Below, in pieces: positions 3,963 through 51,549 of a stretch of DNA of 64,000 nt. Numbering within the stretch: position 1 is the first letter of the stretch; the number at the start of each line of letters is the position of its first letter. A program made the position numbers and the translations under genes. The notes below the pieces were generated by a model. The model did not search any database. It saw nothing but the letters and a program-made list of their open reading frames with translations, and was not told the origin of the DNA. The stretch comes from Candidatus Poribacteria bacterium (GTDB lineage: Bacteria; Poribacteria; WGA-4E; WGA-3G): assembly GCA_965218285.1 (NCBI GenBank), contig OZ244616.1, forward strand, positions 5,635,757-5,699,756, read 5' to 3'.

Positions 3963-4589
3963 AGACAATGCCCTTCAGTAAAAGCACTTAATTATTAGGA
4001 TGGCGTCGCGTGGTTTGTTGATGAAGTTACGAACCTCGTTACAGGCAACAATCCAGCAAATGTCTACATGTTTATTTGAGATTTTACATTTTACTATAAA
4101 TCGGATCACTTCGTTATTTGAGCAAGTTTCGTGCCAATGTTTCTAAGAATGCGTAATATTGTGTCAGGAAAGATGAAATTCTATGCATATTTTTATCATC
4201 TGTCTTAAACATAGACTCAGACTAAGTTTATCAAGTGAGCGGATATCTTAATTTTTTCGAGAAAAATCACATTAGCGTTCGTTTTCCAACCTTTGCTTTT
4301 TATGGTGTGCAAAAATTGTGGTAGAGTCCTGCATAAATTGCTGCATTATAGTAAGGTCTATAATTATTTACATAATTTGACCTTTGGACAACTTCAAAAC
4401 ACGACTATAAATGTAAGAGGCGCAATGAATTGCGCGACTACAAACGCAGTAAACCCAAAGAAAAGTGTATAGGTATTTTTGGATTTCACTATAAGCAATT
4501 TTGGTAGTGGATATTTGGAAGAAATTTACCATTAGTAGCAGGCGAACGTAGTCATTATTGGAGTGGGTCGAACTGTCCTTATACTGGAC

Positions 4590-5381: not shown

Positions 5382-5466
5382 ATATTAGTTGTCGGGTAAA
5401 GAGGATTATTTCAAACTGGAAGAGGCACGATGTATTGCGCGACTACAAACGATTTATGAGAATGCG

Positions 5467-6908: not shown

Positions 6909-6963
6909 ACTAACCGATGATATTAACCTGTATATTTTCGTGCAATGCTGTGCATTTCACTTC

Positions 6964-9040: not shown

Positions 9041-9099
9041 ACTATATTATAATATATATCAATAGAAATGTAAAGAAAAATATAGATTTTTAGATACTG

Positions 9100-9999
9100 T
9101 TACTCAACCTCTTTAAGCAATGCCTGTGTTTGCCGATTGGATGTTTTGAAGTACGTCGCTAAGGTTTGTTGTAATTTATCAAGTTGATGACGGTCACTTT
9201 CAAGAGAGTTAATTCGCTTTTCATAACTTTCTAAGTTGGTGAGACGTTCAAAGATATCTTGTAGTAGGTTTTCCAATTCGCGGTAGCGCACCTGCTCTTC
9301 TTCCAATAATTCCATTTTCTCTGCCATTAAGGTGAGCGTTTTCTTAGTCTTGTCCAACTCAGTCTGAAGCGTTCGTGTAAAAACGATTAATTTCTCCAGC
9401 GTATTAGTCGTTTTATAGACCGGTACCTCTGGATCCGTAGGAGGGAAACTTTTGGGGATAACATGGACATCATCTTTTTCTGGAATATCTTCTGAATTAT
9501 CTTCAGTTAAATCTATATCAGTTTTTTGGGGAATACCAAGTTCTGGATTTGGTGGAGTAACAGGTTGAATTTCAAAGACACCTAACAATTTGATATTATA
9601 TGTAGATGGAATATAGTTCTCTTTACGCTCAGTATAAGATATTTGGACACGAAGTTCCTGAGTAATCTTCAGAGAATTCAGACGGGTATGGATATTTCGG
9701 ATCGCAACCTCATTATACCCGAATGCTTGATTCGATTTCGGAGTTAACTGCCGGAGATAACGGTAGAGTTCCATCACATCAGAACTTTCCCGCGAGATAC
9801 CCTCTTTCGTTAAAATTCCGACTATGTCTTCATCTTCAGGATTTGTGGATGTTTGCAAACTCGGTATGACAATGTCCAGAGGCACTTCGCCTTGAATTGC
9901 CTTCATCCCAAGAGTCCAACTGTTCTCTGAAAGTCTACCGCTGAAGGCGATAAAGTCGTAACTTATTGTCATTGTTTTTTCAACCTTATCTTTTTTCAA
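9100..9999 (-). CDS. hypothetical protein with an acidic Pro-rich middle region and a C-terminal coiled coil
   Basis: Long ORF with no recognisable catalytic motifs. C-terminal heptad-like E/L/K-rich segment. Confidence 0.4.
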   Translation of the reverse strand: MKKDKVEKTMTISYDFIAFSGRLSENSWTLGMKAIQGEVPLDIVIPSLQTSTNPEDEDIVGILTKEGISRESSDVMELYRYLRQLTPKSNQAFGYNEVAIRNIHTRLNSLKITQELRVQISYTERKENYIPSTYNIKLLGVFEIQPVTPPNPELGIPQKTDIDLTEDNSEDIPEKDDVHVIPKSFPPTDPEVPVYKTTNTLEKLIVFTRTLQTELDKTKKTLTLMAEKMELLEEEQVRYRELENLLQDIFERLTNLESYEKRINSLESDRHQLDKLQQTLATYFKTSNRQTQALLKEVE

Positions 10000-19400: not shown

Positions 19401-22400
19401 AACGTAACACCATAAATCGGGAGAATAGTTGTTTGGGTTGTGACCTCAGCCGTTTTCTCCTCATCCCCTTGTGAGGTTGCTGTAACGTTAACTTCGTAGT
19501 TGCCTGCTGTCGCAAGGGCATCACCAGAAAGCGTTATTGTTACTTCCGTAGAAGCACCTCCGGCAAGCGACACGGATGCCTGACTCAATGTAGCAGCATC
19601 ATTTGATGATGTTAAATCAATGACGTCATCTGTATTCCCCGTGTTCGTGGCGGTGAGCATATAACTGACACCTTCCCTTGCATCAGATGTCTCGGTGGTC
19701 AAGACTCCTATGCCAACTAACGTAACACCATGAACAGGAAGAATAGTTGTGGTCGTTGAGACCGCAGCCGTTTTCGTGTTATCTCCCTGTGAGGTAGCTG
19801 TAACTTTGACTTCATAATCCCCTGCAGTTGTAAGCACAGCATCGGAAACAGTCAATGTCACTTCAGTTGAAGCACCCGCGGCAAGCGAGACAGATGTTTC
19901 ACTTAAGGTCGCTGTGGCATCGCCTGACGTTGATAAATCTACAACGTCATCTGTGTTGCCGGTGTTCGCGATGGTGAGCATATAACTGATACCTTCACTT
20001 GCATCAGATATTTTAGTAGTCAACTCATCTACACCTGCCAACGTAACACCATAAACAGGAAGAATAGTCGTTTGGGTTGTGACCTCAGCAGTTTTCTCCT
20101 CATCCCCTTGTGAGGTTGCTGTAACGTTAACTTCGTAGTTGCCTGCTGTCGCAAGGGCATCACCAGAAAGCGTTATTGTTACTTCCGTAGAAGCACCTCC
20201 GGCAAGCGACACGGATGCCTGACTCAATGTAGCAGCATCATTTGATGATGTTAAATTGATGACGTCATCTGTGTTTCCAGTGTTCGTTATGGTGAGCGTA
20301 TAGGTGACACCTTTACTTGCATCAGATGTTTCGGTCATCAAATCGCCTACACTTGCCAACGTGACACCGTAAACAGGAAGAATAGTCGTGGTTGTTGTAA
20401 CCACAGACGACATCGTGCTATCGCCTTGCGAGGTAGCGGTAACCGTAACTTCGTAGTCCCCCGCTGTCGCGAGGTCATCACCGGAAGTCGTTATCGTTAC
20501 TTCCGCAGAAGCACCTGCAGCAAGCGAGACAGAAGTCTGACTCAATGTAGCAGCATCATTTGATGATGTTAAATTGATGACGTCATCTGTGTTTCCAGTG
20601 TTCGTGGCGGTGAGCATATAACTGATGCCTTCACTTGCATCAGATGTTTTACTGGTCAATTCACCTACGCCTGCTAACGTAACACCGTAAACAGGAAGAA
20701 TCTTCGTGTTCGTTGAGACTTCTGACGACATCGTGTTATCGCCTTGCGAGGTAGCGGTAACCGTAACTTCGTAGTCCCCCGCTGTCGCGAGGTCATCACC
20801 GGAAGTCGTTATCGTTACTTCCGCAGAGGCACCCGCAGCAAGCGACACAGATGTCTGACTCAAGATAGCAGCATCATCTGACGTTGTTAAATCAATGACG
20901 TCATCTGTGTTGCCGGTGTTCGTGGCGGTGAGCATATAACTGATACCTTCACTTGCATCAGATGTTTTAGTAGTCAACTCATCTACACCTGCCAAGGTAA
21001 CGCCATAAACAGGGAGAATAGTCGTGGTCGTTGAGACCTCAGCCGTTTTCTCCTCGTCCCCTTGCGATGTCGCGGTAACCTTGACTTCATAATCGCCCGC
21101 TGTCGCGAGGTCATCACCAGAAATCGTTATTGTCACTTCCGCAGAAGCACCTGCAGCAAGCGACACAGAAGTCTGACTCAATGTAGCAGCATCACCTGAC
21201 GTTGTTAAATCTATCACGTCATCTGTGTTGCCGGTGTTCGTGACGGTAAGCATATAACTGACACCTTCACTTGCATCAGATGTTTCAGTGGTCAACTCAC
21301 CCACACCGGCTAATGTAACGCCGTAAACAGGGAGAATAGTTGTCTTTGTTGAAACCTCCGCAGTTTTCGTGCTATCGCCTTGCGAAGTAGCCGTGACTTT
21401 GATTTCATATTCACCTGGTTTTGTGAAGAAATCACCTGCTGCTGTAAATATAACTTCAGCAGAAGCACCGGCAGCAAGCATAATCTCCAACTGACTTGTA
21501 GTAGGTTCCTGATCGTCAGATTGGCTGAACGAACCAAGAACACTCCCTTCAATCCCAAACCCTGCAGAAGATCCAAGCACTACCGTATCTTCTGTATTAC
21601 CGGTGTTTGTCACTGTGAGGGTATAACTGACACCTGCAAGCATATCCATCGTTGCGCCTTTGAGTTCACCTTCACTTTGCAACGTAACGCCGTAAACAGG
21701 GAGAATAGTTGTCTTTGTTGAAACCTCCGCAGTTTTCGTGCTATCGCCTTGCGAAGTAGCCGTGACTTTGATTTCATATTCACCTGGTTTTGTGAAGAAA
21801 TCACCTGCTGCTGTAAATATAACTTCAGCAGAAGCACCGGCAGCAAGCATAATCTCCAACTGACTTGTAGTAGGTTCCTGATCGTCAGATTGGCTGAACG
21901 AACCGAGAACACTCCCTTCAATCCCAAACTCAGCAGAAGATCCAAGCACTACCGTATCTTCTGTATTACCGGTGTTTGTCACTGTGAGGGTATAACTGAC
22001 ACCTGCAAGCATATCCATCGTTGCGCCTTTGAGTTCACCTTCACTTTGCAACGTAACGCCATAAACAGGGAGAATAGTTGTGTTCGTTGAAATCACAGCA
22101 GTTTTCGTTTTATCGACTTGCGAGGTTGCTGTAATCTTAACTTCGTAGTCACCTGCTGTCGCAAGGGCATCACCGGAAGTCGTTATCGTTACTTCCGCAG
22201 AAGCACCTGCAGCAAGCGAGACAGAAGTCTGACTCAATGTAGCAGCATCATTTGATGATGTTAAATTGATGACGTCATCTGTGTTTCCAGTGTTCGTTAT
22301 GGTGAGCGTATAGGTGACACCTTCACTTGCATCAGATGTTTCGGTCATCAAATCGCCTATACTTGCCAACGTGACACCGTAAACAGGAAGAATAGTCGTG

Positions 22401-25496: not shown

Positions 25497-28205
25497 TTAT
25501 TTTAGGATGACCATTCGACGGGTAGCAGAGAAATACTGAGTTTGGAGGGCATAGAAATAGATGCCGCTCGAAACATGTTCACCTGCTGTATTTTTACCAT
25601 CCCAATAAGCAGCACTGGAGTTTGTCGTGTATGCGCCAGTTGACTTATGACCGAGATTTAGCGTCCGAACCGAATGACCGGAAACATCAAAAATCTGAAT
25701 CGTTACGTTGGAACCGCGATTCAGTTGATAAGGTATCCAAGTCTCAGGGTTGAACGGGTTCGGGAAGTTTTGTCCTAGCATGGTTTCTTTAGGACGCACA
25801 TCGCCAACACGCATCTGGACACTCATAAATGCATTGTGAATATCCGTAGTTTGGACTGTGCGTTGGAACGGACCGGACACAATAGTGCCACGTTCGTCAA
25901 GAAGTGCGATCTCAACTTTATCACCGGCTTCGACAACACTCTTATGATTTAGGTCTGCCCATACAGCAGAGACGTATCCATCTTCGCTTGAAACTTTCTC
26001 GGTTGTCGTAACGCCTGTGCGGATGTTTTTGGCAACCATGGTGTAAGACGCACCAGTCTCTTTATTCTGTAAGTCGCTGGCAACTATAAACGCCCAAGCA
26101 CTCTTAGTTGCAGAGATCTTAGGTGCTGCAGCTGCGCTTTCCGTAGGCATTTCAGCCGGTTCGTTTGACCACGCAGTACCAGAAAACGTTACCGTTCCAC
26201 CTGCAGGTGTATTGACAATATATCCCTTTCCACCTTCAATACCAAAATTGTAGCCACCTTCAATACCAGCAACATAACCAACGAAACTCTGCGTTGCTGC
26301 ATTTAACTTGATGACAACTGTCGAACCTAACATATCGGCAAGAGATTGTGCAGTGTAAGGTTCTGCAGGCATTAACGGAACAGAAATCATGTTCAATCCC
26401 GCTTCAAGTGTGACATCATAGGTAGGTAGCGGTGGTGGTGGTTCTACTGGCACTACTTCCGGTGCTGGGACATAAGGTGCGATCATCAGCATTGCTGTCG
26501 GTTCTGTCCAAGCAAAAGATGCAGCAACATCACCAACACCTTGGATACCAGCGTGATGTGTAATTACGCCACCTTCTGTGGGAACACGTGCATTGCTACC
26601 CATCGGGTCTTCATCCGCAGGTAAACCGACTGGACCGGGAATATCAGTCCCGCGCTCGGTATTCTGTTCACTACCTGCGTCGTAAGATCTGAGTTCCAAA
26701 GTCGTTGAAATCGGCATACCTGCTTCATCAAAGAGTGCTAAGTCTGTAGTCCCGATGAATGCATCATTTGTTGAGACCAACATTGTCGCAAGAGAAAGCG
26801 CAGAGTTCATCGCATCTGCTGTTAACATAACCGTGACTGAAGCACCGGGTAAGACCATGCCTTCTCCGACAGTACTGTTTGCGCCTGCAGCTACTGTGAG
26901 TGCGGCGAGCCCTGAGACATCTCCACCTTCAGCAAGCGCGACAAGAGCAGCATTAGCGGGTTGACCGACTTCGTAGAGCTTGATACCTGCAGCATGCGTT
27001 GCAAAGATTGGTGGTGAGAAGATTTGTCCACCCATTCCCGGTTCACCTGTGGTGAGGTTGGTCAGGGTAATACTGAATATTTGTGGTTCGGGAACAACGG
27101 GTTCAGGCACTACGACATCATCCACTGGAGGTGTATCATCTGCCGGAGGCGTATCATCTGCCGGAGGTGTGTCATCCGCAGGTGGCGTGTCATCTGCTGG
27201 AGGCGTATCATCCGCAGGTGGCGTGTCATCTGCCGGAGGTGTGTCATCCGCAGGTGGTGTGTCATCTGCCGGAGGTGTGTCATCCGCAGGTGGTGTGTCA
27301 TCTGCTGGAGGCGTATCATCCGCAGGTGGTGTGTCATCCGCAGGAGGCGTATCATCCGCAGGTGGCGTGTCATCTGCCGGAGGCGTATCATCCGCAGGTG
27401 GCGTGTCATCCGCAGGTGGCGTGTCATCTGCTGGAGGCGTATCATCCGCAGGTGGTGTGTCATCTGCCGGAGGCGTATCATCCGCAGGTGGCGTGTCATC
27501 TGCCGGTGGTGTGTCATCCGCAGGTGGTGTGTCATCTGCCGGAGGTGTGTCATCCGCAGGTGGTGTGTCATCTGCCGGTGGTGTGTCATCCGCAGGTGGT
27601 GTGTCATCTGCCGGAGGTGTGTCATCCGCAGGTGGTGTGTCATCTGCCGGAGGCGTATCATCCGCAGGTGGTGTGTCATCTGCCGGAGGTGTGTCATCTG
27701 CCGGAGGCGTATCATCCGCAGTGGGAACAGTAACCGATCCATCTGCAGTTGTACTTTCCAAAGCACTTCCGCCGGCACCGGAGATAAGTACATCTGTCAA
27801 GGTAATAGCGGACGCTTTTACCTCAACGACTTCAAACGTTACCGTAGCGAGAGTGTGATCACCATCCGGTGCATTACCGAATGCGTAAAATTCAACTTTA
27901 TTCTCAGATATAGTAACAGGGTCAACACCGGGAAGTGCAGGCTTAGGAAGATACTCTCCATAAGCAATAGAAACATAACTGAGAGCAGTTGAATCAAAAT
28001 TTACATCAACTTCGTAGCCTGCGACACCTGCGCCACCCGCGATATTAATATTCACGGTGAGTTGTTCCCCGACTGCCGGGGATTCAATCGTAGCGGGATC
28101 AACAGAAACGGTGGCTGCACCGTAACTCATCGCTGTCCATCCCAATAACATTACAACAGCCATTAAGGAAAATAGTATATTCCTATTGAAAAGCTGGTTT
28201 TTCAT
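25497..28205 (-). CDS. secreted modular surface protein: signal peptide, cohesin-like domain, (DDTPPA)x35 linker, Spondin_N-like domain, beta-sandwich region, T9SS C-terminal sorting domain (Por_Secre_tail)
   Basis: SP MKNQLFNRNILFSLMAVVMLLGWTAMSYGAA. Cohesin-like ..GYEVDVNFDSTALSYVSIAYGEYLP...ENKVEFYAFGN...TLATVTFEVVEVKA. Spondin_N-like FSITLTN.T..Q.FSPP..ATH..G..LYE.GQPA..AL..LAEGG...L...TND.F.G. C-terminal FPNPFNP.T.I.Y.L......IQIFD..G..V..L....WDG.N..GE.VSSGIYFY. Confidence 0.7.
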   Translation of the reverse strand: MKNQLFNRNILFSLMAVVMLLGWTAMSYGAATVSVDPATIESPAVGEQLTVNINIAGGAGVAGYEVDVNFDSTALSYVSIAYGEYLPKPALPGVDPVTISENKVEFYAFGNAPDGDHTLATVTFEVVEVKASAITLTDVLISGAGGSALESTTADGSVTVPTADDTPPADDTPPADDTPPADDTPPADDTPPADDTPPADDTPPADDTPPADDTPPADDTPPADDTPPADDTPPADDTPPADDTPPADDTPPADDTPPADDTPPADDTPPADDTPPADDTPPADDTPPADDTPPADDTPPADDTPPADDTPPADDTPPADDTPPADDTPPADDTPPADDTPPADDTPPADDTPPADDTPPVDDVVVPEPVVPEPQIFSITLTNLTTGEPGMGGQIFSPPIFATHAAGIKLYEVGQPANAALVALAEGGDVSGLAALTVAAGANSTVGEGMVLPGASVTVMLTADAMNSALSLATMLVSTNDAFIGTTDLALFDEAGMPISTTLELRSYDAGSEQNTERGTDIPGPVGLPADEDPMGSNARVPTEGGVITHHAGIQGVGDVAASFAWTEPTAMLMIAPYVPAPEVVPVEPPPPLPTYDVTLEAGLNMISVPLMPAEPYTAQSLADMLGSTVVIKLNAATQSFVGYVAGIEGGYNFGIEGGKGYIVNTPAGGTVTFSGTAWSNEPAEMPTESAAAAPKISATKSAWAFIVASDLQNKETGASYTMVAKNIRTGVTTTEKVSSEDGYVSAVWADLNHKSVVEAGDKVEIALLDERGTIVSGPFQRTVQTTDIHNAFMSVQMRVGDVRPKETMLGQNFPNPFNPETWIPYQLNRGSNVTIQIFDVSGHSVRTLNLGHKSTGAYTTNSSAAYWDGKNTAGEHVSSGIYFYALQTQYFSATRRMVILK
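27122..27720 (-). repeat. 18-bp tandem repeat x about 34 (encodes DDTPPA hexapeptide linker)
   Basis: ggaggcgtatcatctgcc / ggtggtgtgtcatccgca periodicity read directly. Only synonymous third-position variation. Confidence 0.85.
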
Positions 28206-29478: not shown

Positions 29479-29644
29479 CATTCATAATATGTCTTAAATT
29501 GCGTTCTCCAAATTGCTTTTAAGTTAATATGCCATTTTTTTGAAAAAATGTCAAGCAAATAGTTTTGATGTCCAGGGTTATTTAGTTTTAAGAATTATCA
29601 GTTGATGAGTGTTACTGATAGTTTATTTCGTAGGTCGGGTAGAG

Positions 29645-29884
29645 CGGTAGCGAAACCATAGGCGTCAATTTAAGGAAAGAACTCGTTTGTAGTCGCGCAC
29701 TTCATAGTGCCTCGGACATTCAAAGAAAAGAGGCGCTATGAATTGCGCGACTACGAACGCTGATATTCTCGTCCTTTGCGTTATTTGAGATGTTGATACA
29801 AAAAGGTGCGGTTAGGAAACCGCACCTACCGGGTTGGGAACCGCTAAATTGACGCTTATGGTGCGGTTAGGAAACCGCACCTAC
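29645..29884. mobile_element. MITE of the ggtgcggtt-palindrome TIR family (type 2 interior with a 29-bp-stem hairpin). Left TIR truncated.
   Basis: Shares ataggcgtcaatttaaggaaagaactcgtttgtagtcgcgca...gaggcgctatgaattgcgcgactacgaacgctgatattctcgtcctttgcg with the units at 45412-46524. Right end has two copies of ggtgcggttaggaaaccgcacc. Confidence 0.5.
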
Positions 29885-29939: not shown

Positions 29940-30040
29940 GCGCCCAAAAAGTCGCGATTCGGAGATCGCTCCTACAGCGGAGAGTCTTGAGCAAAAGTTC
30001 AAAATTATTGGAAAACTAAATAACCCTGCCTTTAGCCGAA
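29940..30040. repeat. partial copy of the cagggctatttagtt-TIR MITE family (compare 49002-49123)
   Basis: aaagtcgcgattcggagatcgctc...aactaaataaccctgc matches the interior and right end of the 49-kb copies. Confidence 0.3.
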
Positions 30041-32348: not shown

Positions 32349-32441
32349 CTTAACCTACAGTGTATATAAGAGGCGCAATGAATTGCGCGACTACAAACCT
32401 ACAGTGTATATAAGAGGCGCAATGAATTGCGCGACTACAAA
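32349..32441. repeat. tandem duplication (2 x 44 bp) of ctacagtgtatataagaggcgcaatgaattgcgcgactacaaac. Contains one arm of the 29-nt MITE hairpin.
   Basis: Read directly. The same arm occurs singly at 4416-4445 and 5423-5450, and as hairpin pairs at 29690-29760 and throughout 45412-46524. Confidence 0.5.
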
Positions 32442-32550
32442 CGCGCCTCTTTTCAAGTCAACATTCCATGAAAATCGGGCGGACAAAGCCTTCCTACCAT
32501 TTTTGCTTCGGCAAAGTCAATATGCGAAAACCGACAGATAGAGTTATGAA

Positions 32551-38993: not shown

Positions 38994-39747
38994 ATCGCTG
39001 AGGCACGGGGACCTTGCGCTACACTTTTTTGACTGCGCTGAGGCACGGGGACCTTGCGCTACACTTTTTTGACTGCGCTGATGCACGGGGACCTTGCGCT
39101 ACACTTTTTTGACTGCGCTGAGGCACGGGGACCTTGCGCTACACTCTTTTTTGACTGCGCTGAGGCACGGGGACCTTGCGCTACACTCTTTTGACTGCGC
39201 TGGGGCACGGGGACCTTGCGCTACACTTTTTTGACTGCGCTGGGGCACGGGGACCTTGCGCTACACTCTTTTGACTGCGCTGGGGCACGGGGACCTTGCG
39301 CTACACTCTTTTTTGACTGCGCTGGGGCACGGGGACCTTGCGCTACACTTTTTTGACTGCGCTGGGGCACGGGGACCTTGCGCTACACTCTTTTGACTGC
39401 GCTGGGGCACGGGGACCTTGCGCTACACTTTTTTGACTGCGCTGATGCACGGGGACCTTGCGCTACACTTTTTTGACTGCGCTGATGCACGGGGACCTTG
39501 CGCTACACTTTTTTGACTGCGCTGGGGCACGGGGACCTTGCGCTACACTTTTTTGACTGCGCTGATGCACGGGGACCTTGCGCTACACTTTTTTGACTGC
39601 GCTGGGGCACGGGGACCTTGCGCTACACTTTTTTGACTGCGCTGATGCACGGGGACCTTGCGCTACACTTTTTTGACTGCGCTGGGGCACGGGGACCTTG
39701 CGCTACACTTTTTTGACTGCGCTGAGGCACGGGGACCTTGCGCTACA
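38994..39747. repeat. tandem array of about 19 copies of a 40-42-bp unit gcgctg(a/g)(g/t)gcacggggaccttgcgctacac(tc)ttttttgact, with no intervening unique spacers
   Basis: Read directly. Unit-length jitter (40/41/42) and 3 variable positions. Lies between the WD40 gene start and the M20 peptidase gene end. Confidence 0.85.
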
Positions 39748-41438: not shown

Positions 41439-41536
41439 TTTGGACAGTCTCTCTTAACGTGTATTTGTCATATTTTCACACAAATACACAAAAATTTCAA
41501 CAACTAATACCCAATTAACTGGATTCTAATCTATCA

Positions 41537-41928
41537 GTGCGGTTAGGAAACCGCACCATTGGCGTCAATTTAAGAAAAGTCTGTATTTTTTTGAACACCC
41601 CTCAATAAGCATGATTATTGAGACTGTCCCATATTTAGTCCCGTAGGGACGATATGTTTATAGTACACCGTCCAGACACGTCTCTTTAGCTCCGTCCGAG
41701 CGACATATCCCGATTGGTAACCCATTGCTATAAACATTCCGCCCCTACGGGGCTGAAGAGATTGGGGTTACCACGTTTTCTATAAACATATCGTCCCTAC
41801 GGGACTAAAGAGGGTTTCTCATATTTGAAAAACCGCTAAATTGACGCCAATGGTGCGGTTAGGAAACCGCACCTACCGGGTTGGGGACCGCTAAATTGAC
41901 GCTAATGGTGCGGTTAGGAAACCGCACC
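41537..41928. mobile_element. MITE of the ggtgcggtt-palindrome TIR family (type 1 interior with nested 28-bp inverted repeats tagtcccgtagggacgatatgtttatag)
   Basis: TIRs ggtgcggttaggaaaccgcaccattggcgtcaatttaag at 41537 and the reverse complement cttaaattgacgccaatggtgcggttaggaaaccgcacc at about 41835-41874, plus an extra TIR copy to 41928. Near-identical copy at 51162-51499. Confidence 0.55.
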
Positions 41929-42193
41929 TACCGAGTGGAATCAAGTTAATTGGGTATAACGCCCATTATTAGTAGCAATATGTATATGAATTTGTAAATT
42001 CAGTTGCTATTAAGTAAAAAGTATGTTATAATTCATTCATAAAGTACTAAATATATCCATAAACAGACACTGAGCAAGAAGATTACCACTTAAATTGCTT
42101 GAACGTGCTCACTTTGAGTACCTATCTTGGATGCGCGCCATAGTCTGCAGCATCGTTCTAAATTTGATAATTCTTTAAAGTAAAACGAGGCGA

Positions 42194-44943: not shown

Positions 44944-45336
44944 ATGCTCCAACAAAAGATTCATGGGATCGGCATAGATATTATTGAAGTTGAACGGATT
45001 AGACGTCTCTGTCTGCGATGGGGCAGTAAGTTTGAGCATCGCGTCTATACGTCTCAGGAACTTACCTACTGTGGAAAAACCTCTACTCGTTATGCAAGAC
45101 TTGCCGTTCGGTTCGCTGCAAAGGAGGCAACTCTGAAAGCACTTGGTACTGGCTTAACGGTTGGGATGTATTGGCAGGATGTAGAAATTTGCGCCAATGA
45201 TGTTGGAAAACCATCACTCGTGTTACACGGACAAGTTGAGCAATGTGCCGCAGAACTCGGTATTGTTTCGACCTTTGTCAGTCTGTCACACGCTGTCGAT
45301 TATGCTGTCGCGCAGGTGACACTTTGTTCAGCTTAG
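44944..45336 (+). CDS. acpS: holo-[acyl-carrier-protein] synthase (4'-phosphopantetheinyl transferase)
   Basis: GIGIDIIEVERI and FAAKEATLKALG AcpS signatures, about 130 aa. Confidence 0.7.
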   Translation: MLQQKIHGIGIDIIEVERIRRLCLRWGSKFEHRVYTSQELTYCGKTSTRYARLAVRFAAKEATLKALGTGLTVGMYWQDVEICANDVGKPSLVLHGQVEQCAAELGIVSTFVSLSHAVDYAVAQVTLCSA

Positions 45337-45411
45337 TAGAATTAAACATGAAAACATAACCTAAGTTCAACTAATACCATATTAACAGGATTTATCTCAT
45401 TTTTCTTGGTA

Positions 45412-46524
45412 GGTGCGGTTTCCGAACCGCACCATTAGCGTCAATTTAAGGAAAGAACTCGTTTGTAGTCGCGCAATTCATTGCGCCTCGGACATTTGAA
45501 GAAAAGAGGCGCTATGAATTGCGCGACTACGAACGCTGATATTCTCGTCCTTTGCGTTATTTGAGATGTTGGGACAAAAAGGTGCAGTTAGGAAACCGCA
45601 CAGTCTCTTATGGAATATGCGTCCGATAACCATTTTCGCGAACGCCTCGGTGCGGTTCCAAACCGCACCATAGGCGTCAATTTAAGGAAAGAACTCGTTT
45701 GTAGTCGCGCAATTCATTGCGCCTCGGACATTTGAAGAAAAGAGGCGCTATGAATTGCGCGACTACGAACGCTGATATTCTCGTCCTTTGCGTTATTTGA
45801 GGTGTTGGGACAAAAAGGTGCAGTTAGGAAACCGCACAGTCTCTTATGGAATATGCGTCCGATAACCATTTTCGCGAACGCCTCGGTGCGGTTCCAAACC
45901 GCACCATAGGCGTCAATTTAAGGAAAGAACTCGTTTGTAGTCGCGCAATTCATTGCGCCTCGGACATTTGAAGAAAAGAGGCGCTATGAATTGCGCGACT
46001 ACGAACGCTGATATTCTCGTCCTTTGCGTTATTTGAGGTGTTGATACAAAAAGGTGCGGTTAGGAAACCGCACCATAGGCGTCAATTTAAGGAAAGAACT
46101 CGTTTGTAGTCGCGCAATTCATTGCGCCTCGGACATTTGAAGAAAAGAGGCGCTATGAATTGCGCGACTACGAACACTGATATTCTCGTCCTTTGCGTTA
46201 TTTGAGGTGTTGATACAAAAAGGTGCGGTTAGGAAACCGCACCATAGGCGTCAATTTAAGGAAAGAACTCGTTTGTAGTCGCGCAATTCATTGCGCCTCG
46301 GACATTTGAAGAAAAGAGGCGCGTGAATTGCGCGACTACGAACGCTGATATTCTCGTCCTTTGCGTTATTTGAGGTGTTGATACAAAAAGGTGCGGTTAG
46401 GAAACCGCACCTACCGTAGTTGGAAACTGCTAAATTGACGCCTATGGTGCGGTTCCAAACCGCACCTACCGGACCTGGAGGATCACTAAATTGACGCATA
46501 AGGGACGGTTAGGAAACCGAACCT
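45412..46524. repeat. tandem array (about 4.5 units of about 245-310 bp) of the ggtgcggtt-TIR MITE family, type 2. Each unit holds a perfect palindrome (ggtgcggtt-loop-aaccgcacc) and a 29-bp-stem hairpin (gtttgtagtcgcgcaattcattgcgcctc ... gaggcgctatgaattgcgcgactacgaac).
   Basis: Read directly. Units more than 95% identical. Immediately downstream of acpS. Confidence 0.7.
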
Positions 46525-46599
46525 ACGAAGCGTCCAAGTAATTCTAAAATCTACTATAGGTCGAACTCACGTTGGGTAAGCATCTCCGTTACATTTTCA

Positions 46600-47163
46600 T
46601 GACGGCTCCCAAAGCTAAAGCATTGGGTTTCCTTTAGTTCCTTCTCCGTTCTGAACTTTGGAAGGTGGGCATCTTTTGCATATTGTGATATGCTTCTGGG
46701 CTTTTACCGAGTGTTCGTCTGGTTTTTCAGCTGATAGAAAACTCGCCCATCGACTTGATAAACCTCAGCAATGTTGAGGTGGCACCCGCCAGCGGTGCGA
46801 CTACAGGGTCCTTGCTAAGCCCCAATTGAGCAACCCTGATACTTTGGTTCTTTAGCGTTCCGTTTAGTTCGCGGTTGTGGAGGGTTCTCCTACACAATCT
46901 CTAAAATGCGAATGCAGAACTCATCACAAACGAATGAAGGATCATAACCTTCGACGTATAGTCCGAATGTGGTATTGTTGGATTTACCAACACCAACTCT
47001 GTCCAAACAATTGGATTGGATAGGACACCTACGGGAAGTAGGCGATTGCTTTCCTATCCAGTTGGTAGAAATATAATACCACATTTCTTGAAATAAATCA
47101 AGGTTTTTTTGATAAATTGAGACGTTAGCGGTGTTTCATCCCAAAGCTAAAGCATTGGGCTTT
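46600..47163 (-). mobile_element. minus-strand ORF-less TnpB-family derivative (RE-type hairpin 46608-46627, LE hairpin 47138-47157 with minus-strand promoter)
   Basis: Both hairpins are cccaaagctaaagcattggg, the complement of the 7995-8014 LE hairpin. On the minus strand the 47-kb copy is followed by atgaaacacc and TTGATT-17-TATTAT. The 46.6-kb copy is followed by gagcc, an RE-style flank. Confidence 0.4.
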
Positions 47164-47221
47164 CACACCGAACGTTTGGTAATCTCTCTGATTCTCACAT
47201 TGTCACATTGTCAAAAGCGGT

Positions 47222-48412
47222 GTGTCTACATATATCTTGGAGTACGCCAGAACAGTGAAAAGAAAGTTAGATTTTTTGCAGAATTGGATTATATCACCAC
47301 AGCGTTTACAAATCTTGTTGTTAATTTTGGTGTTCTACCTATTCCTCTGTTTTTCTATTTCTGTAGGAATTGCCTCAGAGGTTAATACAACAGCAGAATC
47401 AGATGGATTTCTCAAACAGTTGCTTGGTGCTGAACATCGTGGAATGGGTGGTAGTTTTGTCGGATCGTCCGGAGGTGCAAATGCTCTCGGTAACAATCCT
47501 GCCGGTATCAGTGCTGCCCGAGGAGACCGGTTTGTTATTCAAATGACCCGTTTCCCGCGTACTATTGTCCTACTTTCCAAACCGAATTTTAATGCGAACT
47601 ACGAAGATTATAGGCGATATGAACAACGTGCATCTGGTATTGAAACTCTGAATTGGGCATTTCCTATGGGCAAATTTGGCACAATGGGTGTCGCTTTATC
47701 TACGGCACATGAGGGACCCTTTCGTCGCGTCAACCATCAAGGCAAAGCTTTAAACAATTTTCCAGAAAATAACCTTGCAATTGGACTCGGTTACGGTATA
47801 AATTGTTTTGAGGGCACCGTTGTTGGATTTGATGCGAAGTGGCTACGTTCTAAGGTCACCGACACGTCGGGTGACGAACATTTCGGACGTGGTTACGCGT
47901 ACAATGTTGGACTCATTCAACGTTTTGGTGATGCAATTCAGGTAGGCATTGTCGTTCGTAATTTAAGTAATGGGTTATCGTTTGTTGATCCTGCTATTCC
48001 AGATAATATTCGCCGTGATGTAATTGCCGGTGTAGCTTATCAGCGTGAAATTTTTTCAAACATAAATGTTCGCCTCGGATTAGATGTTCATCCACCTTTC
48101 AGTGATGGTGTCCGAACCAATCTCGGAGTTGAGGTTTGGTATCGCGATCGCATGGGTGGTAGAATCGGATACCTCAGGGATACTGAAAAACGTTACGCCT
48201 CGGTTATCCTTTTGGAAGATAATACGTTTGAAATGGAGGAACGTACGTGGAAAACGGAAGGTCTCTGCTTAGGATTTGGAGTTCGGGTAGCAAACATAAC
48301 GTTAAATGCCGCTTATACTCCCCAGTTTAAGCCGACTGTCTCCGAGAATGAACGTATTCACATCGTCCAAGGCACTTCTGTTTACACCTTTTCAATTGGA
48401 CAGGATTTTTAA
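47222..48412 (+). CDS. PorV/LptO-like outer-membrane beta-barrel (T9SS-associated, FadL-like)
   Basis: Signal peptide then ..LLGAEHRGMGGSFVGSSGGANALGNNPAGI.. (PorV-type GMGGA....NPAG motif). C-terminal ..TFSIGQDF terminal-Phe barrel signature. Confidence 0.5.
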   Translation: MSTYILEYARTVKRKLDFLQNWIISPQRLQILLLILVFYLFLCFSISVGIASEVNTTAESDGFLKQLLGAEHRGMGGSFVGSSGGANALGNNPAGISAARGDRFVIQMTRFPRTIVLLSKPNFNANYEDYRRYEQRASGIETLNWAFPMGKFGTMGVALSTAHEGPFRRVNHQGKALNNFPENNLAIGLGYGINCFEGTVVGFDAKWLRSKVTDTSGDEHFGRGYAYNVGLIQRFGDAIQVGIVVRNLSNGLSFVDPAIPDNIRRDVIAGVAYQREIFSNINVRLGLDVHPPFSDGVRTNLGVEVWYRDRMGGRIGYLRDTEKRYASVILLEDNTFEMEERTWKTEGLCLGFGVRVANITLNAAYTPQFKPTVSENERIHIVQGTSVYTFSIGQDF

Positions 48413-48549: not shown

Positions 48550-48999
48550 TTGTCGGAGGGATGCATGTTGAGTACGGTAAGATATACAACCACACATGAA
48601 TGGATTGAAGTTGTTGATACAGAGGGAACTATCGGCATTACAGAACGTGCCCAACACCTGCACGGTGAAATTGTTTTTGTTAATATATCCCCTGAACAAG
48701 AATGTGAACAAGGTGAAATTATTGGGAGAATTGAAACCGAAACAGGAGGGAATTTTTACCTCTATGCACCAGTCGCAGGAGAAATATACGAAGTCAACAC
48801 GTCACTTGAAGAAGAGGTAGAACTTATCAACAGTTTGCCTGAAAGCGATGGATGGATTTGCAAAATCTACATTGACAATCTTAGCGAACTTGACTCACTT
48901 CTGACTCTTGAAGATTATGAAGACTATGAAGAAGATGAACTGGATGAAGGTGAGTACTTACCAGAAACCGATTTTTTTGAAAATATTGACGACTATTGA
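48550..48999 (+). CDS. glycine-cleavage H-protein-like protein lacking the lipoyl-lysine, with an acidic C-terminal tail
   Basis: VRYTTTHEWIEV.DTEGTIGITE.AQ..GEIVFV ... YAPVAGEI.EVN ... DGWICKI align to GcvH. The conserved E-S-V-K-A is I-E-T-E-T here. Confidence 0.6.
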   Translation: MSEGCMLSTVRYTTTHEWIEVVDTEGTIGITERAQHLHGEIVFVNISPEQECEQGEIIGRIETETGGNFYLYAPVAGEIYEVNTSLEEEVELINSLPESDGWICKIYIDNLSELDSLLTLEDYEDYEEDELDEGEYLPETDFFENIDDY

Positions 49000-49001
49000 T
49001 T

Positions 49002-49123
49002 CAGGGCTATTTAGTTTTAGACTTTTTGTCCATTTTAGACGAAAAGTCGCGATTCGGAGATCGCTCGGATAGGGGAAAGTCTTAGATTGAAAATCTAAAT
49101 ATTCGGAGAACTAAATAGCCCTG
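49002..49123. mobile_element. 122-bp MITE with TIRs cagggctatttagtt / aactaaatagccctg (copy 1)
   Basis: Inverted termini read directly. Starts immediately after the gcvH-like stop codon. Confidence 0.45.
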
Positions 49124-49180
49124 CTATTGATTAGCGTTGCTGGCAATAAAAATACGTCGCACAAGACTCAGCTATTGATT

Positions 49181-49302
49181 CAGGGCTATTTAGTTTTAGA
49201 CTTTTTGTCCATTTTAGACGAAAAGTCGCGATTCGGAGATCGCTCGGACAGGGGAAAGTCTTAGATTGAAAATCTAAATATTCGGAGAACTAAATAGCCC
49301 TG
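49181..49302. mobile_element. 122-bp MITE copy 2. Part of a 175-bp tandem duplication (49008-49182 and 49183-49357) that also duplicates the last 15 codons of the downstream methyltransferase gene.
   Basis: Direct comparison of the two blocks. Confidence 0.45.
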
Positions 49303-50235
49303 CTATTGATTAGCGTTGCTGGCAATAAAAATACGTCGCACAAGACTCAGTTTTGGGACAGGAATAATAGTTTCGACTTGATATCCCAAATCATTCAGTT
49401 GCTGAGTAAGATCTCGAATGTCAATAAAACCGGCTTTCGGTGCACAGGTTCGCAGATTTGCTAATATTTCTGCCGTTGCGGTTGAATCTTTAACAAGATT
49501 TATGCCGTAAGGCAGATCTGTGGCAATTGCGTTGAATGTTCCCTGTACCGTCCTCGCATCCTCTAATTGCACGTCAGCTGTGAGTCCATAGTGTGCAAGA
49601 TTCTTCGTTGTTGCACCGACCATGCGCGGGTTGATATCGTAACCGGTTACCCGTAGACCACTATGTGCAGCAGACATAACAATCGTGCCGGTACCACAAC
49701 ACGGGTCAAGAATATGTTCACCCGGAGAAGCCACAAGGTTGACGAGAGCAAGTGCTAACCTTGTAGGAAGTGAGCTGGAAGTCATATAAGGTCTATGAAT
49801 ATACTTAACCCATATTCCATCGGATTCAGATAGGAGATGACCGAACCAGATTTTATCGGGAGTGACAACGGTTAGATAGACAACTTGTGGAAATGACAAA
49901 TTCGCTTTGCCACTAATCATATTTCCTATCTGCCGTGCCAATGCCATAGAGTCAAGGTCTATATTACGCGGCTTTTTTACAACGGATACCCGAAATTCGT
50001 CCGCATGTAAATCTGCAGAACGGATGTTTGCACAGAGTTCTGCAACGTTTGTAGTTTCGAAAATGATCTCGGTGCAACTTTTAAGATAAGCACCTCGGCG
50101 CACATCAACACAGGTGTCGGAAATCGCGATACCATGTTCATCTGGTGCAGCACCCATCAATGCAACCGATTCTGCGGATGCCAGTTCGTCCAGTTGAAAC
50201 GGAATCGCTACAAGGTAAAGATACTTTTGAACCGT
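49303..50235 (-). CDS. THUMP-like/UPF0020-family class I SAM-dependent RNA (guanine-N2) methyltransferase. Listed ORF start at 50352 is probably an over-extension.
   Basis: Motif I DPCCGTGTIV, motif IV DLPYG (N6/N2-type), GYDIN.RMV. Confidence 0.55.
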   Translation of the reverse strand, partial: TVQKYLYLVAIPFQLDELASAESVALMGAAPDEHGIAISDTCVDVRRGAYLKSCTEIIFETTNVAELCANIRSADLHADEFRVSVVKKPRNIDLDSMALARQIGNMISGKANLSFPQVVYLTVVTPDKIWFGHLLSESDGIWVKYIHRPYMTSSSLPTRLALALVNLVASPGEHILDPCCGTGTIVMSAAHSGLRVTGYDINPRMVGATTKNLAHYGLTADVQLEDARTVQGTFNAIATDLPYGINLVKDSTATAEILANLRTCAPKAGFIDIRDLTQQLNDLGYQVETIIPVPKLSLVRRIFIASNANQ

Positions 50236-51161: not shown

Positions 51162-51499
51162 GGTGCGGTTTCCTAACCGCACCATAGGTGTCAATTTAAG
51201 GAAACGTCTATGTTTTTATGAACCCTTATCAATAGGCATGGTTATTGATATTGTCGGACATTTAGTCCCGTAGGGACGATATGTTTATAGTACACCGTCC
51301 AGACACGTCTCTTTAGCTCTGTCCGAGCGACATATCCGGATTGGTAACCCATTGCTATAAACATTCCGCCCCTACGGGGCTGAAGAGATTGGGGTTACCA
51401 CGTTTTCTATAAACATATCGTCCCTACGGGACTAAAGAGGGTTTCTCATATTTGAAAAACCACTAAATTGACGCCTATGGTGCGGTTTTCTAACCGCAC
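51162..51499. mobile_element. MITE of the ggtgcggtt-palindrome TIR family, type 1 (second copy)
   Basis: About 97% identical to 41537-41874, including the internal nested inverted repeats. Confidence 0.55.
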
Positions 51500-51549
51500 T
51501 GCGTAAAATAAAATAGGCTTGTTATAATTCTCATCCTAAAGGTCTTGCT

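What the first reader, a model, noticed from the sequence alone, without database searches (positions are those of the whole stretch)
45412..46524. MITE family with 38-bp palindromic TIRs: two internal types, one forming a 1.1-kb tandem array of 29-bp-stem hairpins
The family's TIR is ggtgcggtt(a/t)(g/c)(g/c)(a/t)aaccgcacca..ggcgtcaatttaag.

Copies with type 1 interiors are at 41537-41928 and 51162-51499. Type 1 is a highly nested inverted-repeat structure with 28-bp perfect arms.

Copies with type 2 interiors are a single copy at 29645-29884 and about 4.5 tandem copies at 45412-46524. Type 2 contains a perfect 29-nt inverted repeat that would form a very stable RNA or DNA hairpin. Solo arms of that hairpin are scattered elsewhere (4416, 5423, 32369, 32413).

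Tandemly arrayed MITEs are unusual. The superficially CRISPR-like regularity (29-nt repeated arms) could mislead automated CRISPR callers. The extreme secondary structure suggests a structured ncRNA or a replication/recombination hotspot.
Basis: seen in the sequence. Interest (0 to 1): 0.5.

Follow-up and report, generated by a model that had tools for sequence, protein, structure and literature searches.

The report
Transposon fragments chained through host palindromes
The 1.1-kb array is real: it is a chain of short non-coding transposon derivatives from an IS4-type insertion sequence in a sponge-symbiont (Poribacteria) genome. The "palindromic ends" are copies of a host palindrome that this transposon duplicates whole (20 bp) each time it inserts.

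Summary
The anatomy needs re-reading.

- **The "38-bp palindromic TIR" is two things.** It is a 20-bp palindrome, GTGCGGTT-nnnn-AACCGCAC, plus the true 18-bp terminal inverted repeat, CATAGGCGTCAATTTAAG.
- **The palindrome is a host repeat.** It is a GTAG-tagged REP found across Candidatus Poribacteria. It is mostly solitary and lies next to REP-associated tyrosine transposase (RAYT) genes.
- **The palindrome at the element ends is a target duplication.** The two copies flanking an element are direct repeats that share private variants. Related elements in non-palindromic sites also carry exact 20-bp duplications.
- **The autonomous partner is an IS4-family element.** It is about 1.47 kb and encodes a 442-aa transposase. 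Its end signature is IS231-like.
- **The "29-nt hairpin arm" is a second GTAG-tagged REP.** The stem is 27/29 paired, not perfect.
- **Why arrays form.** Each insertion regenerates two intact targets, so elements chain through shared palindromes. The array periods (169, 236 and 56 bp) equal the spacings of direct palindrome copies. This points to local amplification.
- **Recent turnover.** A relative with about 97% identical flanking genes has one type-1 element at the same site.
- **Not CRISPR.** There is no evidence for an ncRNA.

The 20-bp duplication lies outside the 7–13 bp range reported for the IS4 family. I file this as a new variant of a known kind.

The parts
45413..45432 (+). REP-A palindrome R1 (GTGCGGTT-TCCG-AACCGCAC), preceded by the GGTAG tag at 45408-45412. 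It is the left boundary of the array and a copy of the insertion target.
45433..45581 (+). Left unit 1. It has the true left inverted repeat CATTAGCGTCAATTTAAG (45433-45450) plus the type-2 interior, which carries an inverted REP-B dimer (45465-45489 +, 45506-45530 -).
45582..45649 (+). Mutated REP-A (GTGCAGTT-AGGA-AACCGCAC, 45582-45601) plus the 45-bp module X (gtctcttatggaatatgcgtccgataacc...). Together these make the extra 67 bp of the 236-bp period. Module X recurs between REP-A copies in L043.
45650..45885 (+). Second 236-bp unit. Order: REP-A with CCA loop (45650-45668), left inverted repeat (45669-45686), interior with REP-B dimer (45701-45725 +, 45742-45766 -), mutated REP-A (45818-45837), module X.
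45886..46053 (+). Left unit 3, a hybrid. Its left part resembles unit 2 (REP-A with CCA loop) and its right part resembles unit 4. It has the left inverted repeat at 45905-45922 and a REP-B dimer at 45937-45961 / 45978-46002.
46054..46222 (+). Left unit 4, one 169-bp period. Order: REP-A with AGGA loop, left inverted repeat (46074-46091), REP-B dimer (46106-46130 / 46147-46171).
46223..46390 (+). Left unit 5, one 169-bp period. Order: REP-A with AGGA loop, left inverted repeat (46243-46260), REP-B + arm (46275-46299). The second arm is damaged.
46391..46522 (+). Two right-hand end units. Order: REP-A AGGA (46391-46410) + CTACC tail + right inverted repeat (46429-46446); REP-A CCA (46447-46465) + CTACC tail + degenerate right inverted repeat (46485-46502); degenerate REP-A (46503-46522). 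REP-A at 45650/45886 and at 46447 form a 19-bp direct repeat around an element.
29634..29881 (+). Single type-2 element. Order: non-REP-A left flank GGGTAGAGCGGTAGCGAAACC, left inverted repeat, REP-B dimer, internal REP-A (29806-29825), CTACC tail, right inverted repeat, REP-A (29861-29880).
41537..41927 (+). Type-1 element flanked by a direct 20-bp REP-A (AGGA loop) at 41537-41556 and 41853-41872. It is followed by a 56-bp solo right-end unit and a third REP-A at 41908-41927.
51163..51499 (+). Type-1 element flanked by direct REP-A copies (loops TCCT and TTCT). The GGTAG tag is kept only on the left.
4417..4441 (-). Solitary REP-B (GTAG-TC-GCGCAAT-TC-ATTGCGC-CTC).
5422..5446 (-). Solitary, diverged REP-B.
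32370..32438 (-). Two REP-B copies head-to-tail, 44-bp period.

Best explanation
**What it is.** The region is a chain of non-autonomous derivatives (MITEs) of an IS4-family insertion sequence in a Candidatus Poribacteria chromosome.

**Element ends.** The true ends are the 18-bp inverted repeats CATAGGCGTCAATTTAAG.

**How it inserts.** The transposase makes an exact 20-bp target duplication. It prefers a 20-bp host palindrome, REP-A (GTGCGGTT-TCCT-AACCGCAC). REP-A is a GTAG-tagged REP of the host's separate REP/RAYT tyrosine-transposase system. The whole palindrome is duplicated, so every element ends up bracketed by two intact palindromes. This mimics a 38-bp palindromic TIR.

**Why chains form.** Each insertion doubles the target, so later insertions chain elements through shared palindromes.

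**The type-2 interior.** It carries an inverted dimer of a second REP (REP-B, the '29-nt hairpin') and an internal REP-A.

**How this array grew.** The direct REP-A copies lie 169, 236 and 56 bp apart. They then served as anchors for slippage or unequal recombination, possibly with some nested insertion. That amplified the left half of the element to five copies.

**Shown here.** The composite ends, the IS4-family partner, the 20-bp duplications, the REP identity and RAYT linkage, and the turnover against a close relative.

**Inferred.** The amplification route, and any activity of the transposase today.
For: **Organism and REP identity.**
- The palindrome is found overwhelmingly in Poribacteria MAGs.
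- 91 of 111 copies carry GTAG on the TCCY-loop side. Only 16 of 111 abut an IS end.
- GTAG-tagged perfect hairpins number 26 in the window, against 1-6 for control tags that do not overlap the REP-A tag; GGTA and TAGG, which overlap it, give 13 each.

**RAYT linkage.**
- L031:2012-2485 scores 128 bits on NCBIfam NF047646, REP-associated tyrosine transposase (cutoff 80).
- REP-A flanks RAYT genes in L245, L247 and L031. Sister REPs flank them in L241, L239 and L242.

**Target duplication.**
- The two palindromes around one element share loop orientation and private variants. Examples: L002 GTGCGATTAGAAACCACAC at both ends; L038 CGGA/CGGA; L083 GGGA/GGGA; L043 TCCG x4.
- Exact 19-20-bp direct repeats flank about 20 copies. 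These include the full-length ISs L034, L136 and L236.
- Non-palindromic targets show them too: L027 GTGGCGTTAAGTATGTTATC and L236 GGACTTGATGGGGATTACCC.
- Empty versus filled sites: L045 against L038 and L040.

**Autonomous partner.**
- The L034 442-aa ORF scores 201 bits on NF033592, IS4 family transposase (cutoff 115), and hits Pfam DDE_Tnp_1.
- A second, frameshifted copy is in L067.
- Transposases 31-100% identical sit within the matched terminal repeats in eight full-length copies.
- The TIR fits the IS231 end signature CAT-------AA--TAA--- (PMC2266710).

**Array.**
- The three periods equal the REP-A spacings.
- Units differ by 2-12 positions with adjacent units closest. They share private states against the dispersed copy at 29634.
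- Chains through shared palindromes recur in L002, L043, L067, L128 and L178.

**Turnover.** L112 has flanking genes 97.2-97.3% identical. It carries one type-1 element at the same site, between the same flanks.
Against: - The array units are not complete elements: five left ends against two right ends. Simple repeated insertion therefore cannot explain it, and the amplification step is not observed.
- Several full-length IS copies lack matching flanks (L067, L124, L146, L147, L152, L160, L174). I attribute this to recombination between copies, without proof.
- Three related elements show only 9-10-bp duplications centred on hairpins (L150, L220, L229). The 20-bp rule is therefore not universal for this terminal repeat.
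- No transposase or RAYT gene of these families was found in the 64-kb window itself. The source genome could not be searched whole.
- The copy number of a 98%-identical array could be mis-assembled.
Confidence: 0.75

Rival explanations
1. The whole 38 bp (palindrome plus GGCGTCAATTTAAG) is the element's own terminal inverted repeat and moves with it.
For: The palindrome abuts the IS end in every copy in the window. In several full-length ISs from other metagenomes, both ends are flanked by different 20-bp hairpins (L160, L174). That could be read as hairpins belonging to the element.
Against: Loops and asymmetric private variants are direct at the two ends, not inverted. 86% of palindrome copies in other genomes have no IS end beside them and carry a GTAG tag instead. 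Non-palindromic 20-bp direct repeats flank related copies (L027, L236, L172).
Confidence: 0.07
2. A REP cluster of the BIME or REPtron kind. The array was built by the REP/RAYT tyrosine-transposase system or by REP-driven recombination. It reiterates a REP together with whatever DNA flanks it. The IS fragment is a passenger.
For: REP-A is linked to RAYT genes. REP clusters reiterated in tandem with flanking DNA are described for GTAG REPs (PMC3733652). They are seen here upstream of RAYT genes (L247, L031, L244). The window also has a 40-bp x 18.7 array at 38996-39747 and a REP-B doublet at 32352-32442. All array periods begin and end at REP-A.
Against: This explains the amplification but not the dispersal of whole elements with 20-bp duplications at non-REP sites. 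No RAYT activity is shown. The REP-A copies in the array are direct, not alternating as in BIMEs. This rival overlaps with the amplification step of the best explanation.
Confidence: 0.15
3. The array, or its copy number, is an assembly expansion of a single type-2 element.
For: Units are 98% identical. A 97%-identical relative assembled from a 10-kb contig has only single elements.
Against: Units differ in an ordered way: 236- versus 169-bp forms, a hybrid unit 3, a gradient of substitutions, and a damaged arm in unit 5. Chained elements occur in several independent assemblies, including complete chromosomes (L002, L043, L067).
Confidence: 0.08
4. A CRISPR array, or a functional structured RNA or terminator array.
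For: There are regular 20-29-nt palindromic repeats. One 191-nt unit folds as single-stranded DNA at -60.6 kcal/mol, z = -11.8. The internal REP-A followed by TTTTTG reads as a terminator on the minus strand, five times.
Against: The 'spacers' are themselves repeated. No cas gene turned up among the ORFs scanned, and Rfam gave no match. No minus-strand gene reads into the array. The stability comes from REP dimers that occur across the phylum in unrelated contexts.
Confidence: 0.03

Closest known systems
IS231 subgroup of the IS4 family and its non-autonomous cassettes (MIC231) in the Bacillus cereus group
   Same: It has a single-ORF DDE transposase of the IS4 family. The ends start 5'-CAT and fit the IS231 signature CAT-------AA--TAA--- (PMC2266710). 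Non-autonomous derivatives are bounded by the IS ends. Per my own recollection, IS231A prefers a symmetric target, GGG(N)5CCC; this was not checked here.
   Different: The target duplication is 20 bp, not 10-12 bp. The transposase is only about 27-28% identical to the Bacillus elements. The first residue of the YREK motif is I, not Y. The host is Poribacteria and various metagenomes. The target is a host REP hairpin.
REP/RAYT systems and REPINs (Nunvar 2010; Bertels and Rainey 2011; Di Nocera 2013, GTAG-tagged REPs)
   Same: REP-A and REP-B are 20-25-nt palindromes with a GTAG tag. They are numerous and extragenic. RAYT genes are flanked by REP-A or sister REPs. REP-B forms inverted dimers that fold into long hairpins, as REPINs do. 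Clusters are reiterated in tandem with flanking DNA.
   Different: Poribacteria are not named among the phyla in the parts of PMC3733652 I read. Here the REP serves as the landing pad of a different, DDE-type element. The REP-B dimers seen here sit inside the MITE. The cognate RAYT of REP-B was not identified.
Insertion sequences that target REP sequences (IS1397/ISKpn1, ISPpu9/10, IS621; from my own knowledge, not checked here)
   Same: They are mobile elements that use host REP palindromes as preferred insertion sites.
   Different: As far as I recall, those insert inside the palindrome with short or no duplications and split it. Here the whole 20-bp palindrome is duplicated and stays intact on both sides, so the target is regenerated.
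MITE with an internal minisatellite in Porphyromonas gingivalis (PMC4596501)
   Same: It is a precedent for tandem repetition associated with a bacterial MITE (title and abstract only).
   Different: In that case the repeat lies inside one element. Here the repeated unit is a target palindrome plus the left half of the element.

Membership tests
MITE (non-autonomous derivative of an insertion sequence) | Short, non-coding, present in several dispersed copies | tested here: met
   Elements are 200-340 bp and carry no credible ORF. There are four sites in the window and copies in other genomes at 76-96% identity.
MITE (non-autonomous derivative of an insertion sequence) | Terminal inverted repeats shared with an autonomous element that encodes a transposase | tested here: met
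   L034 1884-3353 carries a 442-aa IS4-family transposase between the same terminal repeats. L067 holds a frameshifted copy. Further full-length copies are in metagenome loci.
MITE (non-autonomous derivative of an insertion sequence) | Target-site duplication flanking the terminal repeats | tested here: met
   19-20-bp direct repeats flank about 20 copies, including window 41557-41852 and 51183-51479.
IS4 family | Transposase matches the family model | tested here: met
   NCBIfam NF033592 scores 201 bits (cutoff 115). Pfam PF01609 gives E = 6e-24.
IS4 family | Motifs D(60-110)D(100-150)E and Y(2)R(3)E(6)K | tested here: inconclusive
   R, E and K are present as IGIRWQIELMFKSFKS, but Y is replaced by I. 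Candidate D121 and D198 (my reading of the ADLAY match that starts at residue 197) and E327 give spacings of 77 and 129. They were picked by pattern, not by alignment. Criteria are from PMC2266710.
IS4 family | Target duplication of about one helical turn (7-13 bp across subgroups) | tested here: not met
   The duplication is exactly 20 bp in most informative copies. Table 1 of PMC2266710 gives 7-13 bp. Three related copies do show 9-10 bp.
IS231 subgroup | End signature CAT-------AA--TAA--- | tested here: met
   CATAGGCGTCAATTTAAGGA has CAT at positions 1-3, AA at 11-12 and TAA at 15-17.
IS231 subgroup | Close transposase relationship (many pairs above 50% identity) and 10-12-bp duplication | tested here: not met
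   Identity to Bacillus cereus-group elements is 27-28%. The duplication is 20 bp.
GTAG-tagged REP (for REP-A and REP-B) | Short palindrome (20-40 bp) with an unpaired GTAG at one end | tested here: met
   REP-A: 91 of 111 copies are tagged. REP-B: GTAG is present on nearly all copies in about 40 loci. GTAG is enriched against control tags.
GTAG-tagged REP (for REP-A and REP-B) | High copy number, mostly extragenic, in one genome | tested here: inconclusive
No whole genome could be counted.
REP/RAYT system | A RAYT (Y1 HUH transposase) gene flanked by the cognate REP | tested here: met
   For REP-A: L245 has variants on both sides, L247 has seven copies upstream, and L031 has two copies upstream. 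The RAYT call rests on NF047646 at 128 bits. REP-B was not tested.
REPIN (for the REP-B dimer) | Two inverted REPs with a short spacer, replicating as a unit independently of other elements | tested here: inconclusive
   The dimers have a 16-nt spacer and 93% pairing. The dimers seen (window, L112) lie inside type-2 elements. L002 has the same element with one REP-B only. Most REP-B copies are singletons.
BIME | Regularly spaced REPs in alternating orientation | tested here: not met
   Within each run of identical units (169-bp and 236-bp periods), corresponding REP-A copies keep the same loop orientation; along the whole array the loops are mixed (tccg, agga, cca...), but not in regular alternation.
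CRISPR array | Direct repeats separated by unique spacers, usually with cas genes nearby | tested here: not met
   The spacers are repeated. No cas domains were found in the ORFs scanned; there is only a TnpB at 6964-8055.

The most novel reading that the evidence does not exclude
A clade of IS4-like transposases makes exact 20-bp (two helical turns) target duplications and uses host REP hairpins as landing pads. Members are 31-100% identical and share the terminal repeat CATAGGNGTCAATTTAAG. Because the whole palindrome is duplicated, each insertion regenerates and doubles its own target. This yields self-extending chains of elements. It also couples two unrelated selfish systems in one genome: REP/RAYT and a DDE-type IS with its MITEs. 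Neither the 20-bp duplication nor REPs in Poribacteria turned up in the literature I could search.
Probability: 0.4. Interest if true: 0.6.

Novelty: new variant of a known kind. Interest (0 to 1): 0.45.

Why it matters
- **Annotation.** The apparent long palindromic TIRs are an artefact of target duplication. Tools that define MITEs by their terminal repeats would mis-set the boundaries, and CRISPR callers could be misled.
- **Transposition mechanism.** A fixed 20-bp duplication in an IS4-type enzyme implies target cuts two helical turns apart, outside the family's documented 7-13 bp. It is directly testable with a small transposase and a defined 20-bp target.
- **Genome biology.** It shows one mobile element exploiting the repeats of another. 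It also gives a simple reason why elements pile up into arrays and turn over quickly between 97%-identical genomes of uncultured sponge symbionts.

Tried and rejected
- **Rfam and tRNA scans** of the window found nothing.
- **Cyanobacterial origin** was my first guess. I dropped it: there is one HIP1 site in 64 kb, and the hits are Poribacteria.
- **Exact-protein look-up** of the window's AcpS is not on record. I used homologues instead.
- **A regex for RAYT motifs** found nothing because the motif is YCYANP. tblastn with E. coli RayT worked.
- **A RAYT-mobilised 'giant REPIN'** (a Y1 transposase moving REP-to-REP segments) was my working model for a while. I set it aside as the dispersal mechanism once the IS4 partner and the non-REP 20-bp duplications appeared. 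I keep it as a rival for the amplification step only.
- **A 10-12-bp duplication at the palindrome centre**, with element ends that mimic the outer stem, was considered. I rejected it because of shared asymmetric variants (L002) and non-palindromic 20-bp duplications.
- **Full nested-insertion parsing of the array** fails. Five left ends need five right ends, and only two are present.
- **A clean orthologous empty site for 41537** did not hold. L112 differs by further rearrangements there.
- **Literature searches** for REPs or MITEs in Poribacteria and for 20-bp duplications returned nothing relevant.
Full report
**1. Observation**

The array is real. Tandem Repeats Finder reports three overlapping arrays:
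- 236 bp x 2.8, at 98%;
- 169 bp x 3.1, at 98%;
- 56 bp x 2.5, at 76%.

Together they cover 45412-46526. The palindrome GGTGCGGTTnnnnAACCGCACC occurs 13 times in the window, with none in shuffles. GGCGTCAATTTAAG occurs 11 times, against 0.6 expected. The hairpin arm GTAGTCGCGCAATTCATTGCGCCTC occurs 15 times.

The dispersed copies at about 29634-29881, 41536-41928 and 51162-51500, and the solo arms, are as described. The 29-nt stem is 93% complementary rather than perfect.

The array lies in a 1.9-kb gap between acpS (44944-45336) and a 396-aa gene (47222-48412). Both sit in a housekeeping stretch: ftsH, folP, acpS, gcvH and a futalosine-pathway gene.

**2. Organism, and what the palindrome is**

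About nine in ten of the loci came from Candidatus Poribacteria MAGs, many of them complete chromosomes.

I oriented the copies by their asymmetric loop. 91 of 111 copies outside the window carry GTAG immediately 5' of the palindrome. The consensus is CCGGTAG-GTGCGGTT-TCCT-AACCGCAC-CG. Only 16 of 111 abut the GGCGTCAATTT motif.

This is the format of the GTAG-tagged REPs of Di Nocera et al. (PMC3733652). I call it REP-A.

The hairpin arm is a second such family, REP-B: GTTYGTAG-TC-GCGCAAT-TC-ATTGCGC-CTC. It is present, mostly as singletons, in about 40 of the loci fetched. In the window, perfect hairpins tagged by GTAG number 26, against 1-6 for control tetranucleotides that do not overlap the REP-A tag.

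**3. RAYT linkage**

tblastn with E. coli RayT found two 157-aa ORFs, in L031 and L089.
- The L031 protein scores 128 bits on NCBIfam 'REP-associated tyrosine transposase' (cutoff 80). It also matches Pfam Y1_Tnp.
- It has 91 homologues at E <= 1e-25. All those that carry a source name come from Poribacteria.

The genes sit in REPtron-like settings:
- L241 has REP-C (GCACGGTT-TCCT-AACCGTGC), inverted, on both sides.
- L239, L240, L242 and L243 have GCGAGGTT-TCCT-AACCTCGC on both sides.
- L245 has REP-A variants on both sides.
- L247 has seven REP-A copies directly upstream.
- L031 has two REP-A copies upstream.

REP-A is therefore one member of a set of poribacterial REP families with RAYT partners.

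**4. The palindrome at the element ends is a duplicated target**

Three lines of evidence support this.

*Direct repeats at the two ends.* Where both ends of an element are present, the two palindromes have the same loop orientation. They also share private, asymmetric variants:
- L002 6496/6672: GTGCGATTAGAAACCACAC at both ends;
- L038: CGGA/CGGA;
- L083: GGGA/GGGA;
- L043: TCCG x4;
- window 41537: AGGA x3;
- window 51163: TCCT/TTCT.

True inverted repeats would read as reverse complements.

*Twenty-bp repeats at non-REP sites.* A metagenome scan with the inner motif gave 120 further loci. Measuring direct repeats just outside CAT...ATG gave exact 19-20-bp repeats in about 20 copies. They include three full-length elements:
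- L034, in REP-A;
- L136, in GGACACCCCGTTGGGTGTCC followed by CTAC, which is another organism's REP;
- L236, in the non-palindromic GGACTTGATGGGGATTACCC.

They also include MITEs in non-palindromic sites (L027 GTGGCGTTAAGTATGTTATC, L172, L167). In L113-L116 a sister element with the repeat CATAGGTGTAAACTTAAG is flanked by a 19-21-bp non-palindromic repeat.

*Empty and filled sites.* L045 has an empty version (gtaggatgcg-REP-ctaccgcccttg). L038 and L040 have filled ones.

The true terminal repeat is therefore 18 bp, CATAGGCGTCAATTTAAG, and the duplication is 20 bp.

There are exceptions. Several copies have unmatched flanks. Three relatives show 9-10-bp repeats centred on hairpins.

**5. The autonomous partner**

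L034 1884-3353 is a 1.47-kb element bounded by the same repeats and by REP-A on both sides. Its 442-aa ORF scores 201 bits on NCBIfam 'IS4 family transposase' (cutoff 115). It also matches Pfam DDE_Tnp_1. L067 holds a frameshifted copy flanked by MITEs. Eight loci in which paired terminal repeats were matched also encode transposases 31-100% identical; 14 loci in all hold a homologue.

The repeat fits the IS231 subgroup end signature CAT-------AA--TAA---. However, all IS4-family subgroups are reported to duplicate 7-13 bp (PMC2266710, Table 1).

Other differences:
- The transposase is only 27-28% identical to Bacillus cereus-group elements. It is 31-35% identical to Chloroflexi plasmid copies.
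- Its YREK motif reads I-R-E-K.

I therefore file it as an IS4-family relative with IS231-like ends, not as a member of the IS231 subgroup.

**6. Anatomy of the array**

In order:
1. REP-A (TCCG loop, GGTAG-tagged).
2. Left repeat + interior.
3. Mutated REP-A.
4. 45-bp module X.
5. REP-A (CCA loop).
6. Items 2-5 again.
7. Three units of [left repeat + interior + REP-A (AGGA loop)].
8. CTACC tail + right repeat.
9. REP-A (CCA loop).
10. CTACC tail + degenerate right repeat.
11. Degenerate REP-A.

Every TRF period is a spacing between successive direct REP-A copies.

The basic type-2 element is seen singly at 29634-29881 and at L112 2305-2550. It contains an internal REP-A 169 bp from its left target copy and 56 bp from its right one.

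Several observations bear on how the array grew.
- The five left units differ at 2-12 positions, with neighbours most alike.
- Unit 3 is a hybrid of the two unit types.
- All five share states that differ from the dispersed copy.
- The REP-A copies at 45650/45886 and at 46447 form the 19-bp direct repeat expected around one inserted element.
- Five left ends with two right ends cannot come from nested insertion alone.
- The 56-bp 'solo right end' units at 41873-41928 and in L043 look like the reciprocal deletion product.

I infer local amplification by slippage or unequal exchange between direct REP-A copies, after one or two insertions. This step is inference. Chains of elements sharing one palindrome recur in L002, L043, L067, L128 and L178.

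**7. Turnover**

L112 (GCA_047516045.1) is 97.2-97.3% identical across ftsH-folP-acpS and the downstream gene.
- At the same site, between the same flanks, it has one type-1 element in the opposite orientation. That element is flanked by direct REP-A (TCCT) copies.
- Its single type-2 element sits upstream of ftsH, where the window has type 1.
- More distant relatives have either a 134-bp intergenic region with no repeat (L117, L118) or a different MITE family (L113-L116).

The site is thus a recently active hotspot. Independent insertion, and replacement by recombination through the shared 38-bp ends, cannot be told apart here.

**8. Other readings**

- *CRISPR* is excluded. The spacers are repeated, and there are no cas domains in the ORFs scanned.
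- *A functional RNA* has no support. Rfam is empty. One 191-nt unit folds strongly as single-stranded DNA, at -60.6 kcal/mol with z = -11.8. But that follows from REP dimers that occur everywhere.
- *Terminator-like sites.* The internal REP-A plus a T-run scores as a minus-strand terminator five times. No gene reads into it.
- *Assembly expansion* cannot be excluded without reads. It is made unlikely by the ordered differences among units.

**9. Verdict**

The headline feature, the palindromic TIR, is a duplicated host REP. The array is a by-product of a transposon that regenerates its own target.

The kind is known. The 20-bp duplication, the REP landing pad and the poribacterial REP/RAYT background appear undescribed in the literature I could search.

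Noticed in passing
window 38996-39747: A head-to-tail array of 18.7 copies of a 40-bp unit (CGCTGAGGCACGGGGACCTTGCGCTACACTTTTTTGACTG, 95% identity). It lies between a WD40-repeat gene and an M20 peptidase gene. On the minus strand the unit reads GTAG-CGCAAGGTCCCCGTGCC..., so it looks like another GTAG-tagged repeat. A single related copy sits in L112 near 6900.
   Followed up: partly
window 46601-47179: A roughly 580-bp non-coding insert that is absent from the 97%-identical relative L112. It is 85% identical to L043 550-1134. It is bounded by identical direct 20-nt hairpins, CCCAAAGCTAAAGCATTGGG, at 46608 and 47140. The same hairpin family occurs at about 15 sites in the window, including the ends of the TnpB element at 6880, 7989 and 8382. 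It may be a non-autonomous IS605/IS607-type element.
   Followed up: partly
window 6600-9100: An IS607-like element. It has a serine recombinase with MerR and Resolvase domains (8453-9040, minus strand). It also has a TnpB (OrfB_IS605 + Cas12f1-like TNB, 6964-8055, minus strand). The TnpB HTH part lies in a separate ORF (8356-8967), so the gene looks split.
   Followed up: partly
window 41600-41830 and 51230-51450; L008 5540-6330, L031 6800-7760, L062 240-1060: The type-1 interior is built from units such as CTATAAACATATCGTCCCTACGGGACTAAAGAG. Units of the same design (CTATAGACATATTGCTCC-nnn-GGAGCAA) flank a second family of Y1 transposase genes. These encode 158-159-aa proteins that match NCBIfam IS200/IS605 at 71 bits, in three Poribacteria loci.
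   Followed up: partly
L002 6530-6727 versus window 45433-45581: The same type-2 element in another genome has one REP-B instead of the inverted pair. The difference is a clean indel of about 34 nt that contains one REP-B. This suggests REP-B was added, or lost, as a single unit inside the element.
   Followed up: partly
window 41500-41960; L001, L026, L032, L076, L079, L106, L112 2930-3020: Solitary REP-A copies often sit at the centre of longer imperfect palindromes, with arms such as TAATACCAAATTAAC...GTTAATTTGGTAT. Between the window and L112, the central REP with its tag appears flipped within the same arms.
   Followed up: no
window 48993-49350 and 29940-29975: A 179-bp x 2 tandem repeat (99%) lies between gcvH and a methyltransferase gene. 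It is 96% identical to L002 2379-2503. It contains the motif AGTCGCGATTCGGAGATCGCTC, which also occurs next to the type-2 element at 29940. It may be a further dispersed repeat family.
   Followed up: no
window 16412-25378: A 2988-aa ORF on the minus strand made largely of 318- and 369-bp coding tandem repeats at 80-97% identity. The next gene (25497-28205) has cohesin, FlgD-Ig and Por-secretion-tail domains and its own 36-bp coding repeat.
   Followed up: no
L150, L220, L229 (metagenome loci): Elements with the same terminal repeat show 9-10-bp duplications centred on GTAG-tagged hairpins, instead of 20 bp. The clade may therefore contain both one-turn and two-turn enzymes.
   Followed up: no
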